Part shown: positions 1 to 4,892 of the stretch, in pieces
How positions within the stretch are numbered: the stretch's first letter is position 1
How the letters are laid out: each line of letters starts with the position of its first letter
Source: a virus
Lineage: Duplodnaviria > Heunggongvirae > Uroviricota > Caudoviricetes
Direction: 5' to 3' (one strand)
Virus record (IMG/VR): IMGVR_UViG_2681813004_000004
Length of the DNA: 19,742 bases
Program-made: the position numbers and the translations under genes
Notes under the pieces: model-generated
Seen by the model: the letters and a program-made list of their open reading frames with translations, nothing else
What the model was told of the DNA's origin: nothing
The model's database searches: none

Positions 1-2
1 GT

Positions 3-110
3 CTGACACTGGGACTGAATGCGCTGACGCTGACGGATGTTACAAAAAATGCAGCGTATGGCGTTGAGATAGAAAGTCTGGTGCTGGAGATAAATGCACC
101 GGCAGCATAA
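3..110 (+). CDS. 3' end of an upstream CDS that enters the window (C-terminus ...LVLEINAPAA); product not recognised
   Basis: Frame is open from the window edge and ends in tandem stops TAA TAA (108-113); no start codon in window. Confidence 0.4.
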   Translation: MTLGLNALTLTDVTKNAAYGVEIESLVLEINAPAA

Positions 111-111
111 T

Positions 112-153
112 AAAAAAAGAGCCAGCGACTGACCTGAAAGAAGACGCTGGCTA
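112..153 (-). terminator. A-run plus GC hairpin (agccagcg / cgctggct, about 17-nt loop); would read as hairpin followed by U-run on the minus strand
   Basis: Inverted repeat 120-127 / 145-152 with A7 at 112-118. Loop is long for an intrinsic terminator, so function is uncertain. Confidence 0.25.
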
Positions 154-259
154 AAAGGCCTTATATGTTTGTAGAGACTTATTTTTCACAGACAGCAATG
201 ATGCCTGTCAATATATTATCAATATGCGGATTGTTTCAGTTACAGATGCTTTATTAAGG

Positions 260-302
260 AAAAAAACAGCCAGCACTGACTTTCGGTGGAGAGGTGCTGG
301 CT
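260..302 (-). terminator. Second copy of the A-run plus hairpin module (agccagcac / gtgctggct)
   Basis: Inverted repeat 268-276 / 294-302 preceded by A7 at 260-266; same architecture as 112-153 with compensatory stem changes. Confidence 0.25.
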
Positions 303-557
303 CAGAAGGATAGTTGGATTTCACATGATACTTATGCCTGGCGGTATATTTTCTGACAGACAGTGACGGGTGTTGTCAAGATATTGTGTCATTTATAACC
401 TGAATCAGGGGAGGCCGGAATGTTATCTGGCATTTTTAGCAGAGCCTGAATGCCATAATCACGGCTCCCGGAGTTGGCCGTCAGTGGGTGACACTGGTGG
501 TTTTTTTGTTTTTCTTTACTTTCATTTTCTGTCGGCGGTGACGGAGACATACATCAG

Positions 558-764
558 ATGGAAAAAATCACAACGGGTGTGTCATACACCACGTCAGCGG
601 TGGGGACGGGATACTGGTTACTGCAGCTGCTGGACAAAGTCTCTCCGTCCCAGTGGGTGGCAATCGGTGTGCTGGGGAGTCTGCTGTTTGGCCTGCTGAC
701 GTATCTGACTAACCTTTATTTCAAGATTAAAGAAGATAAGCGTAAGGTGGCGCGGGGAGAGTAG
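558..764 (+). CDS. S: Class II holin (pinholin), phage 21 S-like, 68 aa
   Basis: Protein [26 protein letters not shown]...[22 protein letters not shown] closely resembles the S21 pinholin as I recall it (two TMDs, charged C-tail); GGAG upstream of ATG; lies upstream of a SAR endolysin. Confidence 0.88.
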
Positions 765-1019
765 TCGATGAATAAACAATACGAACTGGTTGTAAAATGA
801 ATATTTCTAACTGAAAAAACGTTCCATGAGGTAAGAAAAGGTCACAGGCAATCAATAACAGGACGTGATGAAAGACCCTTGCATTTGTGCGCTTTCTCTT
901 TAGATAGCAGCAGATACTGAAAATCTGAGTTGTCGGGGAGTCAGGGATACAGCTGTGCAAGAGTTGGTCATTGTGATTCCATTGAAATCCTGTATGCCAT
1001 GAAGGGCAGGATTTTATGG

Positions 1020-1334
1020 CTACCTGAGCTTTGGTGATAGTAAGTTGAAAATTCGCATTTTTTGCTGACATGCGTAACGAGAATCCCATAAGCAGGGAGG
1101 ACTTAATTCTTCATTAACCCATGCGTTGATATTATGTTTCAGCCGTTGAAGCATCAGCGGTGTTAATGTTGTGGTAATAATATCCAGCGTTTTATGTGAG
1201 ATCTTACCGTAAGGGTCTGCAAGAATGCTGCTTGTTGCTTCGTTATTATCTGCCATCAGAAGAAGTAACTCTGATTTAACGTTTTCTGTCATTAGTTGTA
1301 AAAATCTTCTGCGCAAACTTTCTTTACTGTTCAT
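1020..1334 (-). CDS. Hypothetical protein (104 aa) encoded antisense within an AT-rich insert between holin and endolysin; candidate moron
   Basis: ATG-initiated minus-strand ORF in a visibly AT-richer segment (about 765-1450); TATAAT-like -10 element on the minus strand near 1408-1416; no recognisable domain. Confidence 0.35.
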   Translation of the reverse strand: MNSKESLRRRFLQLMTENVKSELLLLMADNNEATSSILADPYGKISHKTLDIITTTLTPLMLQRLKHNINAWVNEELSPPCLWDSRYACQQKMRIFNLLSPKLR

Positions 1335-1451
1335 TTATATGGCTTCATTTGTTGTAATCTGCTGCGTCTCAAGGGATATGTTTATGAGAGCGACCATGAG
1401 TGTTGGATTATATACCTAACATATCAAGGGATTAGAAATCGATAAATCCCC

Positions 1452-1985
1452 ATGAACGAAAAAATAAAATACGGCCTGTCGGCTGCCGTTCTGGCGCTGA
1501 TTGGTGCAGGTGCTTCTGCGCCTGAAATCCTCGACCAGTTTCTGGATGAAAAGGAAGGTAACCACACCACGGCATACCGTGATGGTGCGGGGATCTGGAC
1601 CATCTGCCGTGGTGCCATTCTGGTGGATGGTAAGCCTGTTATTCCTGGCATGAAGCTGTCAAAGGAAAAATGCGACCGGGTTAATGCCATCGAACGTGAC
1701 AAGGCGCTGGCATGGGTGGAGAAAAACATCCGGGTGCCGCTGACCGAACCCCAGAAAGCGGGGATCGCGTCATTCTGTCCGTACAACATTGGCCCCGGTA
1801 AGTGCTTCCCGTCGACGTTTTATAAACGAATTAATGCAGGCGATCGAAAAGGTGCCTGTGAGGCGATTCGCTGGTGGATTAAGGACGGTGGCAGAGACTG
1901 CCGTATCCGTTCAAATAATTGCTACGGTCAGGTCTCACGGCGTGACCAGGAGAGCGCGCTGGCGTGCTGGGACATCGACAGATAG
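1452..1985 (+). CDS. R: SAR endolysin (phage lysozyme, GH24 T4-lysozyme-like), 177 aa
   Basis: N-terminal Gly/Ala-rich weakly hydrophobic segment (LSAAVLALIGAGASAP) typical of a signal-anchor-release domain, followed by a lysozyme-like catalytic region; resembles R21 and Stx-phage endolysins from memory. Confidence 0.9.
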   Translation: MNEKIKYGLSAAVLALIGAGASAPEILDQFLDEKEGNHTTAYRDGAGIWTICRGAILVDGKPVIPGMKLSKEKCDRVNAIERDKALAWVEKNIRVPLTEPQKAGIASFCPYNIGPGKCFPSTFYKRINAGDRKGACEAIRWWIKDGGRDCRIRSNNCYGQVSRRDQESALACWDIDR

Positions 1986-2078
1986 CAGAATATTTTCCTG
2001 AAAAATGACGTTGGCCAACGCGGGTGGATAACACGAAATCCTGAAAACTGGTAAAACCTAAGTGAATAAAAGTAAAAA

Positions 2079-2116
2079 CCCCGTTTGTTGGCAGCAAGCG
2101 GGGTTTTGTGTTTTCT
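2079..2116 (+). terminator. Rho-independent terminator between R and Rz
   Basis: ccccgtttg / caagcgggg stem (9 bp, one G-U), 7-nt loop, followed by ttttgtgttttct. Confidence 0.6.
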
Positions 2117-2205
2117 GACCTTGAGTAAGGCAAGGGAGAAATTATGGGTAGGGAGGTACTTTCCCTGTGAGGAAGTATAAAAGATTCTTTCTGAGGTTGT
2201 CCATT

Positions 2206-2319
2206 ATGAAAGGCATTGAAGTGGAGACGCCAGCCAGTCTGGATTTAACAAGAGCGGCAGCTTTTGCCATTCGTATTGTGGCCATTGCTGTTCTGGTCTG
2301 GGCAATCCGTTGGTGGTGA
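2206..2319 (+). CDS. Candidate small hydrophobic peptide (37 aa, MKGIEVETPASLDLTRAAAFAIRIVAIAVLVWAIRWW); stop overlaps the Rz start region
   Basis: ATG preceded by GAGG about 8 nt upstream; C-terminal TM-like segment; TGA at 2317-2319 is immediately followed by the Rz ATG at 2321. Below the ORF-track length cutoff. Confidence 0.25.
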   Translation: MKGIEVETPASLDLTRAAAFAIRIVAIAVLVWAIRWW

Positions 2320-2320
2320 T

Positions 2321-2788
2321 ATGAACCGTGTTCTGTGCGTGGTTATCATTGTCCTGCTGGTGGCCTGTGGTGCGCTTAGTCTGGGGCTGAATCATTACCG
2401 TGATCACGCCATCATCTACAAAGAGCAGCGCGATAAAAAAGCCAGTGAGCTGGAGCTGGCGAACGCGACAATTACTGATATGCAGATACGCCAGCGTGAT
2501 GTCGCTGCACTTGATGCCAGATACTCGAGGGAATTAGCCGATGCGAGAGCTGAAAATGAAACTCTGCGTGCTGATGTTGCCGCTGGTCGTAAGCGCCTGC
2601 GGATCAACGCCACCTGCTCCGGTACCGTGCGTGAAGCCACCGGCACCTCCGGCGTGGATAATGCAACCGGCCCCCGACTGGCAGACACCGCTGAACGGGA
2701 TTATTTCATCCTCAGAGAACGGCTGATGGCAATGCAGAAGCAACTGGAAGGAGCACAGGAATATATCCGTACCCAGTGTATACCGTGA
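2321..2788 (+). CDS. Rz: Rz i-spanin (inner-membrane spanin subunit), 155 aa
   Basis: MNRVLCVVIIVLLVACGALSLGLNHYRD... N-terminal TMD followed by a coiled-coil-like region; strong resemblance to lambda Rz. The ORF-track start at 2264 is a TTG extension not supported by homologs. Confidence 0.88.
   Translation: MNRVLCVVIIVLLVACGALSLGLNHYRDHAIIYKEQRDKKASELELANATITDMQIRQRDVAALDARYSRELADARAENETLRADVAAGRKRLRINATCSGTVREATGTSGVDNATGPRLADTAERDYFILRERLMAMQKQLEGAQEYIRTQCIP
2541..2726 (+). CDS. Rz1: Rz1 o-spanin lipoprotein, embedded in the +1 frame of Rz, 61 aa
   Basis: Entirely inside Rz in a different frame; signal peptide with lipobox LVVSAC then a proline-rich mature region (PPAPVPCVKPPAPPAWIMQPAPDWQTPLNG), as in lambda Rz1. 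Confidence 0.8.
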   Translation: MRELKMKLCVLMLPLVVSACGSTPPAPVPCVKPPAPPAWIMQPAPDWQTPLNGIISSSENG

Positions 2789-3253
2789 TGTTTTGTTATG
2801 AAGGTGTTACTGGTAACGTTAAGGTAATTTAACAAAGAGTCAGTTCCGGACTTTATAGTGTGCTCAGTTCATGGCCAAAAACGATTTCTGTGATAAATAT
2901 TTTGAATATTATTTACAGGTAAATGGAGTGGGGCACATGGATAGAAATATTACAATAGAGAATGAAGTATATGCCCGTATTGTATGGGCAGAGAAGGCAA
3001 AAACACGGTAATTCCGTGTGTTGCCATGATACCTGATTGGCAGAATAGTTGTTTGGTTTTGAGTATATAGTCAGCGTTTTTTGTTCAGTAATTGCTCCCT
3101 CAAAAAATAATAAAATAAGGTGATTATTTTTGTTTATTATTTAGTTTTTTTTGTGTGTTGTTTTATTGTTTTTGCGTGGTTTGTTTTTTATTGTTATTTC
3201 ATTAAGGGAAGGTAAATTCAGGATGGCAGTCTGTAGATAATCGGAGGTCACTT

Positions 3254-3568
3254 ATGCTACATGATCACGTGGCAGAATGTCTGGAGAAAAAAGGACTGTA
3301 CCGGAGAGCAGCTGAACGATGGGCAAAAGTGATGGTACAGCTAAGTGATGACCAGAAAAGAAAAGTAGCGGCACAGAAACGAGCAGAGTGTTTGCGTAAG
3401 GCGCGCCGGACTCCGGTTTCACCGGTGAACCTGACCGAAATAAAACAAGCGGTCAACAGACTACATTCTGAGTTGGGAATGGGATTTGAAGAGCGGCGGG
3501 TATTCCGACGATATAAAGGGACAGGAGAACAGAATACGTCCGGAAACGCGCGGTCAAAAAAATGCTAA
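3254..3568 (+). CDS. PerC-family-like transcriptional regulator (Pch-like), 104 aa; moron
   Basis: GGAGG about 6 nt upstream of ATG; the motif LEKKGLYRRAAERWAKVM matches my recollection of the PerC/Pch family; basic C-terminus; sits between Rz and cos where lambdoid prophages carry morons. Confidence 0.6.
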   Translation: MLHDHVAECLEKKGLYRRAAERWAKVMVQLSDDQKRKVAAQKRAECLRKARRTPVSPVNLTEIKQAVNRLHSELGMGFEERRVFRRYKGTGEQNTSGNARSKKC

Positions 3569-3604
3569 AAAATATCTGAGAGAGTTATTGCCTGTTACCA
3601 TAAG

Positions 3605-3632
3605 AAAAAGCGACTTTAGTGGTCGCTTTTTG
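3605..3632. terminator. Bidirectional rho-independent terminator between convergent genes
   Basis: aaaagcgac / gtcgctttt stem with 7-nt loop, flanked by an A-run upstream and a T-run downstream; lies between the + gene ending 3568 and the - gene ending 3650. Confidence 0.6.
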
Positions 3633-3649
3633 TGTCATATATAAGTCGT

Positions 3650-3874
3650 TTAAGTAAACCTGTCTGAACAGGTGCTCTGGTCGTGTTTGTCTTTGTTGGG
3701 TACAAATTGAGAATATTTTTCATTAATTAATCTTCTTCTGCAGGCTTCAATAACCCACGCTGAAAAATTACCTGAACCTTTCAGGTCAAGAGCGATGTTA
3801 ATTTGTTCAATTATCTGGTTTGGAAATCGGATGTTGCGGGTTGTTGTTCTGCGGGTTCTGTTCTTTGATGACAT
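3650..3874 (-). CDS. Small putative ribbon-helix-helix-like DNA-binding protein (74 aa), possibly DUF3950/YlcI-like
   Basis: ATG-initiated minus-strand ORF; basic N-terminus followed by IRFPNQIIEQINIALDLKG...SAWVIEACRRRL, consistent with a beta-strand plus two helices; adjacent to cos as in several E. coli prophages (from memory). Confidence 0.5.
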   Translation of the reverse strand: MSSKNRTRRTTTRNIRFPNQIIEQINIALDLKGSGNFSAWVIEACRRRLINEKYSQFVPNKDKHDQSTCSDRFT

Positions 3875-4081
3875 AATGTTGCCCCGTATTCAGTGTTGCT
3901 GATTTGTATTATCTGAAGTTGCTTTTACGCTAATTTGATGCAGATCAATTAATACGATACCTGCGTAATAATTGATTATTTCTCGTGGTTTGATGGCGTA
4001 CACACATGTCGTGATAAACCTCATGTAGATGATAATTATTATCATTTTCGTGGGTCCTTTCCGGCGATCCGACAGGTTACG

Positions 4082-4093
4082 GGGCGGCGACCT
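4082..4093 (+). other. cosN cohesive-end sequence GGGCGGCGACCT, copy 1, preceded by a cosQ-like segment
   Basis: 12-nt sequence identical to the lambda cohesive end as I recall it, preceded by ...tcctttccggcgatccgacaggttacg (lambda right-end / cosQ-like). Confidence 0.7.
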
Positions 4094-4187
4094 CGCGGGT
4101 TTTCGCTATTTATGAAAATTTTCCGGGGTTATTGCTCAATAATTATTATCATTTTTCGGGTCCTTTCCGGCGATCCGACAGGTTACG

Positions 4188-4199
4188 GGGCGGCGACCT
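4188..4199 (+). other. cosN cohesive-end sequence GGGCGGCGACCT, copy 2 (the copy adjacent to cosB)
   Basis: Same 12-mer and same flanks as copy 1; followed directly by the R3-I1-R2-R1-like array. Confidence 0.75.
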
Positions 4200-4235
4200 C
4201 GCGGGTTTTCGCTATTTATGAAAATTTTCCGGGAT

Positions 4236-4344
4236 CCATGTCCGGTTTCTCTTCAAGTTAACTATATGAAAAATATAAAAACAGGTCTTCTGTGAACCGG
4301 ACATGAACAAAAAACAGACATGTAAACCGGACATGACCGGTTTT
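4236..4344 (+). promoter_or_regulatory. cosB-like terminase small-subunit binding region: three R elements sharing the core aaccggacatg (one inverted) and an A/T-rich IHF-like site
   Basis: catgtccggtt at 4238-4248 (inverted), aaccggacatg at 4295-4305 and 4325-4335, A/T-rich segment 4256-4285 between the first two; immediately upstream of the Nu1-like gene. Confidence 0.6.
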
Positions 4345-4382
4345 GTTGTGATTGTGAGGTGAGAGTTTTTGCGAGGTGAGGA

Positions 4383-4892
4383 GTGGCTACGCAGACTGAA
4401 GTTGCCAGGCATTTAAGTCTGACCGATCGCCAGCTTCGCAGATTGCAGAAATTGCCGGGTGCCCCGATATCGAATAAGCGAGGGCAACTGGATCTGGATG
4501 CCTGGCGCGATTTTTACATATCGTATCTGAGGAGAAGTAAAAACGATGTGCCTGATGGCGATAGCGAAGACGACTATGAGGAGAAATTGCTTATTGCCAG
4601 ATGGGAACTGACAGCAGAACAGGCTGTTACACAGCAGTTAAAAAATGAGGTGTCAAAAGGAAAACTTATTGACACCGGGTTCTGTATTTTTGCCCTCAGT
4701 AAGCTGGCAATGGCGTTATCCAGTACGCTTGATTCCATCCCTTTATCCATGCAACGACAGTTTCCTGATTTAACACCGCGCCATCTTGACCATCTGAAAA
4801 CCCTTATTGCGAAGGGGGCAAATCAGTGTGCGCGGGCGGGGGATAAATTACCGGATTTACTCGATGAATATATCAGAGCAACAACTGAATAA
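4383..4892 (+). CDS. nu1: Terminase small subunit (Nu1-like), GTG start, 169 aa
   Basis: C-terminal half (FCIFALSKLAMALSSTLDSIPLSMQRQFPDLTPRHLDHL...LLDEYI) resembles lambda Nu1; N-terminal region is HTH-like; GAGGTGAGGA precedes the GTG; directly downstream of cosB. Confidence 0.8.
   Translation: MATQTEVARHLSLTDRQLRRLQKLPGAPISNKRGQLDLDAWRDFYISYLRRSKNDVPDGDSEDDYEEKLLIARWELTAEQAVTQQLKNEVSKGKLIDTGFCIFALSKLAMALSSTLDSIPLSMQRQFPDLTPRHLDHLKTLIAKGANQCARAGDKLPDLLDEYIRATTE

What the first reader, a model, noticed from the sequence alone, without database searches (positions are those of the whole stretch)
765..1450. AT-rich insert with an antisense 104-aa ORF splitting the pinholin and SAR endolysin genes
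In phage-21-type cassettes S and R are normally adjacent (from memory). Here about 690 bp of visibly lower-GC DNA separates them and carries a minus-strand ORF (1020-1334) with a TATAAT-like -10 element near 1408-1416 on that strand. I recognise no domain. A lysis-cassette moron transcribed against late transcription could be lysogen-expressed, for example a superinfection-exclusion, defence or lysis-timing factor.
Basis: partly seen in the sequence, partly recalled or inferred. Interest (0 to 1): 0.55.

Follow-up and report, generated by a model that had tools for sequence, protein, structure and literature searches.

The report
Lysogen-transcribed orphan gene between holin and endolysin
The AT-rich DNA between the holin and endolysin genes of this E. 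coli O157-type prophage carries a real, conserved 104-amino-acid gene that is transcribed in uninduced cells against the phage's late genes; it is the surviving half of a two-gene phage module, and its function is still unknown.

Summary
Bases 765-1451 have 39% G+C, against 52-55% in the flanks. They separate a phage-21-type pinholin (558-764) from a SAR lysozyme (1452-1985) and carry a minus-strand ORF at 1020-1334.

The ORF is a genuine gene. It belongs to phrog_1853 (function unknown). Alleles of 49-96% identity keep a length of 104-106 aa, with dN/dS of 0.14-0.33.

Published Cappable-seq data for EDL933, whose sequence is identical here, place its main transcription start at window 1411 (minus strand). 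That start was seen in all eight uninduced conditions. It is driven by an extended -10 element (TGATATGTT).

The insert is not a simple insertion. Bases 768-1019 are the wreck of a sense-strand "long YdfR" gene (X). In Stx2 phage 86 and other prophages X lies intact, convergent with this gene (Y). X-only, Y-only and X+Y states all occur.

Y folds as a five-helix bundle with no informative structural or family match, so its function remains unknown. My best reading is a lysogen-expressed moron protein, possibly a binding partner or antagonist of X-type proteins. It is already annotated as hypothetical (EDL933_1276, WP_000138558.1). Interest is moderate.

The parts
558..764 (+). S, phage-21-type class II (pin)holin, 68 aa. 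The upstream antiholin start codon of relatives is ATA here.
   Evidence: PF04971 E 1.9e-32. Upstream comparison GACATACATCAGATGG against GGTATGTACCAGATGG in relatives.
768..800 (+). Remnant of the 5' end of a DUF1327/long-YdfR gene (X). It reads MNKQYELVVK followed by a stop and starts 4 nt after the S stop codon.
   Evidence: tblastn with phage 86 orf5 residues 1-12 gives 9/12 identical, which is weak on its own (E 0.28). P0071 begins MNKQYKLVVKG. Position and alignment with intact loci.
850..972 (+). Remnant of the conserved C-terminal domain of X (the ...GLMKRIGRCMGYLQ..AEIEAL.. region), with two in-frame stop codons. About 600 bp of X is missing between and around the two remnants.
   Evidence: tblastn with the 12E129 213-aa protein residues 146-186, 39% identity, E 1e-4. 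DNA alignment A2.
1020..1334 (-). Y, a 104-aa protein-coding gene. It is the same as EDL933_1276. PGAP calls a 90-aa version, WP_000138558.1, starting at Met15. The predicted product is a soluble five-helix protein.
   Evidence: phrog_1853 E 3.5e-47. dN/dS 0.14-0.33. The ORF has diverged 2-3 times less than its flanks in partner-less lineages, Fisher p 0.003-0.009. AF2 pLDDT 87, pTM 0.78. Met1 is supported because the phage 86 and 12E129 alleles have no Met at position 15 and residues 1-14 are conserved.
1343..1346 (-). Shine-Dalgarno-like GAAG 9-12 nt upstream of Met1. Other alleles have GAGG or GAGA here.
   Evidence: Upstream alignment A5, with an invariant GA.
1335..1411 (-). 77-nt 5' UTR of Y. 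The main transcription start is the A at 1411.
   Evidence: Cappable-seq main gTSS of gene EDL933_RS06280 at NZ_CP008957 position 1272853 in all 8 conditions, mean relative read score 31-72 (PMC10469882 Tables S5-S7). The sequence is identical to the window and the coordinates were mapped.
1418..1426 (-). Extended -10 promoter element TGATATGTT. TG lies at -15/-14 and TATGTT at -12..-7 relative to the start at 1411. There is no recognisable -35.
   Evidence: Position relative to the mapped start. The block GATATGT is conserved in nearly all alleles, including those that lack TATAAT; L002 has GGTATGT and L059 GATATAT. That this element is the promoter is inferred, not tested by mutation.
1400..1412 (-).
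   Evidence: Secondary TSS at 1272864 in 2 of 8 conditions. TATAAT is conserved in the window, L058, L007, L060 and L059 alleles, is TACAAT in L002, and is absent from the phage 86, 12E129 and L068 alleles.
1452..1985 (+). R, a SAR-type phage lysozyme of 177 aa.
   Evidence: PF00959 E 7.6e-24, phrog_7 endolysin.

Best explanation
The insert is the reduced form of a conserved two-gene phage module that sits in the lysis region of lambdoid prophages.

**The module.**
- X is a sense-strand, late-operon gene. It has an optional DUF1327/YdfR N-domain, a coiled coil, and a conserved roughly 100-aa C-domain.
- Y is a small gene convergent with X.

**Shown.**
- In this window X has been destroyed. Only 768-800 and 850-972 remain, with stop codons.
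- Y (1020-1334, minus strand) survives as an intact gene under purifying selection.
- Y is transcribed from its own promoter in uninduced O157:H7 cultures, in the opposite direction to Q-dependent late transcription.
- Y therefore behaves as a moron, as lambda bor does.

**Inferred.**
- The mRNA, with a 77-nt leader and a weak SD, yields a soluble five-helix protein of about 12 kDa that acts as a protein in the lysogen.
- Y is ancestrally paired with X, often with overlapping 3' ends, yet it cannot be expressed from the late promoter. My preferred mechanism is therefore that Y binds and restrains or regulates X-type C-domain proteins. These could come from leaky late transcription, from co-resident prophages, or from incoming relatives. 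I give this sub-claim about 0.3.
- The biochemical activity is unknown.
For: **Real gene.**
- Matches phrog_1853.
- Alleles of 49-96% identity keep a length of 104-106 aa and a conserved SD.
- dN/dS is 0.14-0.33.

**Still selected after losing its partner.**
- In L055, L056 and L058 the same 255-nt remnant is present.
- There the ORF differs from the window by 2.2-3.5%, against 6-8% in the remnant and 8-11% upstream (Fisher p 0.003-0.009).
- dN/dS between the window and L058 is 0.14.

**Own promoter, active in the lysogen.**
- Cappable-seq main start at window 1411 in LB, minimal, acid and salt media, in both exponential and stationary phase, with relative read scores of 31-72.
- The EDL933 sequence is identical to the window here.
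- In EDL933 the holin-Y-R-Rz block is inverted relative to Q and the terminase genes and is flanked by IS elements. At that copy Y's expression therefore cannot depend on late transcription.

**Two-gene module.**
- The arrangement S, X, then antisense Y, then R is intact in Stx2 phage 86 (orf5/orf6) and in Stx2a 12E129, and in L002 and L007.
- Distant pairs lie upstream of other holin types: L068, with Y 50% and the X C-domain 31% identical, and L149-151, about 38-40% identical.
- Divergence in X and Y mostly tracks.

**Co-residence.** One O157:H7 genome carries both a Y-only locus and an X-only locus.
Against: - No protein-level evidence (Ribo-seq, mass spectrometry) was found.
- The SD is weak (GAAG).
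- The X-Y functional link is not obligate. Of 78 IMG/VR loci with X and room downstream, 59 lack Y. All window-type loci lack X.
- The L007 X allele is 77-80% identical to those of phage 86 and 12E129, but their Y alleles are only 46-51% identical. This argues against tight allele-specific pairing.
- The X model was too poor (pLDDT 48.5) to test an interaction.
- The insert is present in up to three copies per genome, so the TSS reads may come from any copy.
Confidence: 0.55

Rival explanations
1. Y is a stand-alone lysogenic-conversion or defence factor, for example a superinfection-exclusion or anti-phage protein. On this view its function has nothing to do with X, and the X-Y adjacency only reflects shared history at a moron hot spot.
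For: - Y alone stays under purifying selection and is 100% conserved in 626 of 5426 complete E. coli genomes, across S alleles of 73-100% identity and R alleles of 86-100%.
- X and Y each occur without the other.
- Y is constitutively transcribed in lysogens.
- It is retained in defective prophages, including one with an IS-disrupted R and frameshifted terminase and portal genes.
Against: - No match to any PADLOC defence model.
- The pair X plus convergent Y is conserved down to about 35-50% identity and in a different cassette position. That is hard to explain without a functional link.
- The protein has no membrane segment or signal peptide, unlike many exclusion proteins.
Confidence: 0.25
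2. The important product is the transcript, not the protein. On this view constitutive antisense transcription from 1411 runs head-on into the S/X region. It acts as a brake on leaky late transcription reaching the dangerous SAR endolysin, through transcriptional interference or antisense RNA.
For: - A strong constitutive start faces the late operon.
- No intrinsic terminator is detectable in the 130 nt downstream of the Y stop (fold z = 0.14). Read-through into the antisense of the remnant and of S is therefore plausible.
- In intact modules the 3' ends of X and Y overlap by 21-33 nt.
Against: - Purifying selection is codon-specific (dN/dS 0.14-0.33). Length, start codon and SD are conserved across alleles whose DNA has diverged to saturation at silent sites. 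This shows that the protein matters.
- The promoter points away from R, so R is not directly covered by the transcript.
- An RNA role could still coexist with the protein role.
Confidence: 0.12
3. Y is a non-functional leftover that has simply not yet decayed in recently spread O157 prophages.
For: - Its partner gene is already destroyed.
- Most copies are at least 99% identical, which is consistent with a recent clonal spread.
- A few frameshifted or truncated variants exist: P0001, P0013 and P0016.
Against: - The ORF is 2-3 times more conserved than its flanking non-coding DNA in partner-less lineages, and dN/dS is 0.14.
- All 47 IMG/VR window-type loci keep the ORF intact.
- The promoter is active.
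Confidence: 0.05

Closest known systems
Lambda bor, and morons in general (Juhala/Hendrix sense; from established knowledge, not tested here)
   Same: An accessory gene lying beside the lysis genes. It is oriented against late transcription, has its own promoter active in the lysogen, and its base composition differs from the flanks.
   Different: Bor is an outer-membrane lipoprotein located downstream of Rz. Y is a soluble five-helix protein between S and R with no sequence relationship to Bor. It has no Pfam hit and no lipobox or signal peptide. Y is also the remnant of a two-gene module, not a single-gene insertion.
YdfR / DUF1327 (PF07041), the Qin prophage gene between essQ and rrrQ
   Same: It occupies the same S/R junction. 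The window retains the first 10 codons of such a gene at 768-800. Long YdfR forms (DUF1327 plus C-domain) are Y's ancestral neighbour. K-12 YdfR binds the RNase E N-terminal half and co-purifies with RNA (PMC13232886).
   Different: YdfR is on the sense strand and is unrelated in sequence to Y. The window has no intact YdfR. No function is established for YdfR either.
phrog_1853 (unknown function), for example orf6 of Stx2-converting phage 86, BAF34038
   Same: The HMM matches over the whole protein (E 3.5e-47). Gene length, orientation and position next to R are the same.
   Different: The window allele is only about 49-53% identical to phage 86 orf6, and it has lost the adjacent orf5 homologue.
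Type II toxin-antitoxin or immunity-type gene pairs
   Same: A small helical protein is genetically linked to a larger partner, and orphaned small partners persist in genomes.
   Different: The genes are convergent, not co-transcribed. Each occurs frequently without the other. No toxin or antitoxin family was matched.

Membership tests
phrog_1853 | Significant full-length match to the family HMM | tested here: met
   E 3.5e-47, residues 1-102 against profile positions 57-158 of 159.
Moron (independently expressed accessory gene in a phage late region) | Absent from otherwise similar phages at the same junction | tested here: met
   Loci with S, X, then R lack it (59 of 78). H-19B, YYZ-2008 and Stx1 phages carry short ydfR instead. 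However, junction alignment A6 shows that L133 and L095 retain Y's last codons. Those are therefore deletions of Y, not empty insertion targets.
Moron | Own promoter, active in the lysogen | tested here: met
   Published Cappable-seq main TSS at window 1411 in all 8 uninduced conditions, relative read score 31-72.
Moron | Own terminator | tested here: inconclusive
   No terminator-like site on the minus strand downstream of 1020. The 141 nt after the stop fold no better than shuffled sequence (z = 0.14). Rho-dependent termination is not testable here.
Moron | Base composition different from the flanks | tested here: met
   Y is 38.4% G+C and the insert 39.0%, against 52-55% for S, R and Rz.
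Bor (PF06291) lipoprotein family | Sequence match, signal peptide and lipobox | tested here: not met
   No Pfam hit at E <= 1. The protein has no N-terminal hydrophobic segment, and GRAVY is -0.33.
DUF1327 / YdfR (PF07041) | Pfam match of the encoded protein | tested here: not met
   Y has no Pfam hit. Only a 10-codon sense-strand remnant at 768-800 resembles the DUF1327 N-terminus. Intact phage 86 orf5 matches PF07041 at E 3.7e-45.
Type II toxin-antitoxin pair | Two co-oriented, co-transcribed genes that co-occur obligately | tested here: not met
   X and Y are convergent. X occurs without Y in 59 of 78 loci, and Y without X in all window-type loci.
Known anti-phage defence systems (PADLOC-DB 2.0) | HMM match to a component | tested here: not met
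   No family at E <= 1 for Y (two alleles) or for X.

The most novel reading that the evidence does not exclude
X and Y form a previously unrecognised phage conflict or safety module. X would be a late-expressed effector, whose YdfR-type relatives touch RNase E and RNA. Y would be its lysogen-expressed antidote. In O157:H7 the two halves have been split between different prophages. The orphan Y would then be kept because it neutralises X-type proteins made by co-resident or superinfecting lambdoid phages. That would be a form of inter-prophage immunity acting at the lysis stage.
Probability: 0.15. Interest if true: 0.65.

Novelty: new member of a known kind. Interest (0 to 1): 0.35.

Why it matters
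O157:H7 and other STEC strains carry many lambdoid prophages, and their accessory genes shape virulence and phage-phage interactions. This gene is present and 100% conserved in about 12% of complete E. coli genomes. It is constitutively transcribed in uninduced EHEC, yet it has no known function, fold relative or family beyond a tiny prophage-restricted clade.

Recognising it as half of a conserved convergent pair with the long YdfR proteins gives both uncharacterised families a testable context. The other half is a relative of the K-12 y-gene ydfR. The finding also shows that the S/R junction is a site of reductive module evolution, not of simple insertion. It remains an annotated hypothetical gene of an ordinary kind (a moron), so the finding is useful but not surprising.

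Tried and rejected
- **Family searches for Y.** Pfam, NCBIfam and PADLOC gave no hits. A profile search of PDB sequences gave nothing below E 0.2.
- **Partner structure.** pLDDT was 48.5, too poor to search or interpret.
- **Wider homology.** Only 21 representatives among 1.84 billion proteins matched. No GTDB species-representative genome matched.
- **Rfam.** Nothing significant in bases 1-4500.
- **Mobile-element signature.** No direct or inverted repeats at the insert boundaries.
- **ORF 727-1089 (minus strand, 120 aa).** No family match and it overlaps the S stop, so I treated it as spurious.
- **Toxin-antitoxin reading.** Rejected because of the convergent orientation and the non-obligate co-occurrence.
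Rejected in favour of the mapped start at 1411.

Full report
**1. What is in the sequence**

The window is the late region of an O157:H7-type lambdoid prophage.
- The end of a nanS-p esterase gene lies before base 110.
- A phage-21-type class II holin, S, is at 558-764 (PF04971, E 1.9e-32).
- A SAR-type lysozyme, R, is at 1452-1985 (PF00959).
- Rz/Rz1, a PerC/Pch regulator, and the terminase and structural genes follow.
- Between S and R lie 687 bp at 39.0% G+C. S is 52.2%, R 54.3% and the whole window 53.4%.
- The minus-strand ORF 1020-1334 (104 aa) is there, as is TATAAT at 1412..1407 on that strand.

**2. The ORF (Y) is a real protein-coding gene**

- *Family matches.* It matches phrog_1853, of unknown function, at E 3.5e-47. 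It matches nothing in Pfam, NCBIfam or PADLOC.
- *Homologues.* Homologues of 49-80% identity have the same length (104-106 aa) and the same antisense position next to R.
- *Selection.* Pairwise dN/dS is 0.14-0.33, with silent sites near saturation between distant alleles.
- *Start codon.* The N-terminal 14 residues and an SD-like GA(G/A)G 8-12 nt upstream of Met1 are conserved. The phage 86 and 12E129 alleles have no Met at position 15. The 104-aa start is therefore better supported than PGAP's 90-aa call, WP_000138558.1. The Latif re-annotation of EDL933 already lists the 104-aa protein as EDL933_1276.
- *Family size.* The family is tiny. Only 21 representatives among 1.84 billion clustered proteins matched, and no GTDB species-representative genome did.

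**3. It is transcribed in uninduced cells from its own promoter**

- In EDL933 (NZ_CP008957) the same DNA, identical across the promoter region, lies at 1272279-1273706.
- A Cappable-seq study (PMC10469882) used four media (LB, minimal medium, LB plus malic acid, LB plus NaCl). Each was sampled in exponential and stationary phase, in triplicate.
- That study lists the main TSS of this gene (EDL933_RS06280) at 1272853 in all eight conditions. Mean relative read scores are 53.6, 60.6, 71.8, 31.1, 33.9, 41.9, 52.7 and 42.9. The cut-off is 1.5, and the values are comparable to ordinary chromosomal genes in the same table.
- Position 1272853 maps to the A at window 1411 on the minus strand.
- Relative to that start, TATGTT lies at -12..-7 and TG at -15/-14. 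This is an extended -10 promoter, TGATATGTT at 1426..1418. That explains why the two-hexamer scan found nothing.
- The GATATGT block is conserved in nearly all alleles, with single-base variants in L002 and L059. It is present even in alleles that lack TATAAT.
- In EDL933 the holin-Y-R-Rz-perC block is inverted relative to Q/nanS-p and the terminase genes and is bracketed by IS elements. Expression of Y at that copy therefore cannot come from the late promoter.
- Caveat: the insert occurs in up to 3 copies per genome, so the reads may derive from any copy.

**4. The insert is a reduced two-gene module, not a simple insertion**

- *The partner gene X.* In relatives, a sense-strand gene X lies between S and Y, convergent with Y. 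Their 3' ends are 10 nt apart or overlap by 21-33 nt.
- *What X is.* X belongs to phrog_1085. Its longer forms (268-333 aa) begin with a DUF1327/YdfR domain (PF07041), followed by a coiled coil and a conserved roughly 100-aa C-domain.
- *An intact example.* Stx2-converting phage 86 carries the intact arrangement S, orf5 (268 aa), orf6 (104 aa, antisense), R.
- *Remnants in the window.* The window keeps only wreckage of X. Bases 768-800 encode MNKQYELVVK followed by a stop, which is the DUF1327 N-terminus starting 4 nt after the S stop. Bases 850-972 are a C-domain remnant with two in-frame stops (tblastn E 1e-4).
- *Window-type loci.* All 47 IMG/VR loci with the window-type Y (at least 96% identity) share this same 255-nt remnant. 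Their S alleles nevertheless range from 73 to 100% identity and their R alleles from 86 to 100%.
- *X without Y.* Of 78 IMG/VR loci with X and room downstream, 59 lack Y. At least some of these (L133, L095) still carry Y's last five codons plus stop, joined to the R-proximal flank at a GATAA(A)TC microhomology. They are therefore deletions of Y.
- *Distant pairs.* Distant X-Y pairs lie upstream of other holin types, so the pair travels as a unit. In L068, Y is 50% and the X C-domain 31% identical. In L149-151 both are about 38-40% identical.
- *Co-divergence.* X C-domain and Y divergences mostly track each other. One clear recombinant exception is the L007 allele against the phage 86 and 12E129 alleles, with X at 77-80% but Y at 46-51%.

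**5. Y remains under selection after losing X**

- In the partner-less lineages L055, L056 and L058, the ORF differs from the window by 2.2-3.5%. The remnant differs by 5.9-7.8% and the upstream spacer by 7.7-11.1%. Fisher p is 0.003-0.009.
- dN/dS between the window and L058 is 0.14.
- The insert is at least 99% identical in 623 complete E. coli genomes and covers at least 80% of the query in 626 of 5426. It is absent at the DNA level from sequenced phages in INPHARED.
- It persists in clearly defective prophages, including one with an IS-disrupted R and frameshifted terminase and portal genes.

**6. What the protein might do**

- AlphaFold gives a confident five-helix bundle: pLDDT 87.4, pTM 0.78, with helices at 3-26, 31-39, 47-56, 59-77 and 85-99.
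- There is no membrane segment. The pI is 9.3 in this allele and varies from 5.4 to 9.3 among alleles.
- The X model was unusable (pLDDT 48.5).
- K-12 YdfR, which is the DUF1327 domain alone, was reported to bind the RNase E N-terminal half and to co-purify with RNA. Its function is unknown (PMC13232886).
- One O157:H7 genome (PV15-279) carries both a Y-only locus and, in another prophage, an X-only locus with a 185-aa X.

**7. Interpretation**

Shown:
- Y is a real gene, constitutively transcribed in the lysogen against the late operon.
- It is AT-rich and is the orphaned half of a conserved convergent pair.

Inferred:
- It acts as a soluble protein in the lysogen.
- My preferred mechanism, at about 0.3, is that it binds and restrains or regulates X-type proteins. 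The reasoning is that it is ancestrally tied to X but is expressed from a different programme.

Rivals:
- A stand-alone conversion or defence function (0.25).
- A mainly RNA-level antisense brake on leaky late transcription (0.12). No terminator is detectable downstream, but codon-level selection argues that the protein matters.
- A neutral leftover (0.05).

**8. Comparison with known systems and novelty**

In architecture Y behaves like lambda bor and other morons. It has its own promoter, antisense orientation, expression in the lysogen and a deviant composition. It is not a member of the Bor, DUF1327, TA or any PADLOC family. Its only family is the uncharacterised phrog_1853.

It is already annotated as a hypothetical protein. 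What is new here is the module context, the set of reductive states at the S/R junction, the mapping of the promoter, and the start-codon correction. I class it as a new member of a known kind, of moderate interest.

Noticed in passing
window 2060-2166, minus strand, with its promoter at 2174-2203: Candidate small RNA of about 100 nt between R and Rz, antisense to the late operon. A sigma-70-like promoter, TGGACA-18-TATACT, fits a Cappable-seq TSS seen in all 8 conditions in EDL933 at 1272098, which is window 2166. The RNA folds into three hairpins ending in an intrinsic terminator with a U-run; z = -3.2 against shuffled sequence. No Rfam family matched.
   Followed up: partly
window 2206-2319, plus strand: A 37-aa ORF (MKGIEVETPASLDLTRAAAFAIRIVAIAVLVWAIRWW) with a hydrophobic C-terminal half lies immediately upstream of Rz, inside a 335-bp R-Rz spacer. 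It is annotated as hypothetical protein WP_000675931.1 in EDL933 and has no Pfam hit. It could be a small membrane protein of the lysis cassette.
   Followed up: partly
window 545-560: The holin gene lacks the upstream start codon that gives the longer antiholin form in relatives. The window has ATA at 549-551 where L007 and phage 86 have ATG (MYQM...). Only the 68-aa product can be made here. This may alter lysis timing.
   Followed up: partly
window 3254-3568, plus strand: A PerC/Pch-family transcriptional activator gene (PF06069, E 3.8e-44). This is the family of prophage-encoded LEE regulators of EHEC.
   Followed up: yes
L154 (EDL933, NZ_CP008957 1269515-1277120): In EDL933 the whole block holin-Y-R-37aa-Rz-perC is inverted relative to Q/nanS-p and the terminase genes and is flanked by IS elements. 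The lysis genes of that prophage are therefore disconnected from the late promoter.
   Followed up: partly
window about 1176, plus strand, inside Y: A weak sense-direction TSS (EDL933 1273088, relative read score 2-4, in 5 of 8 conditions) lies about 275 nt upstream of R. It could give low-level, Q-independent transcription of the SAR endolysin.
   Followed up: no
L152 (O157:H7 PV15-279, 1670654-1671211): The same O157:H7 genome that has a Y-only locus also has, in another prophage, an X-only locus: S, then a 185-aa X (WP_001015158.1), then R. The X C-domain is found in 787 of 5426 complete E. coli genomes.
   Followed up: partly
window 113-155, 260-305 and 476-502: Two similar A-run plus hairpin elements (aaaaaaa-gagccagcg...cgctggct and aaaaaaa-cagccagca...tgctggct) lie upstream of S. 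A terminator-like hairpin with a T-run lies just before S. These may be terminators or small-RNA remnants of the nanS-p to S spacer.
   Followed up: no
L149 710-1210: In a distant relative of the module, an HNH_3/AP2 homing-endonuclease-like gene sits between Y and a lambda-type holin.
   Followed up: no
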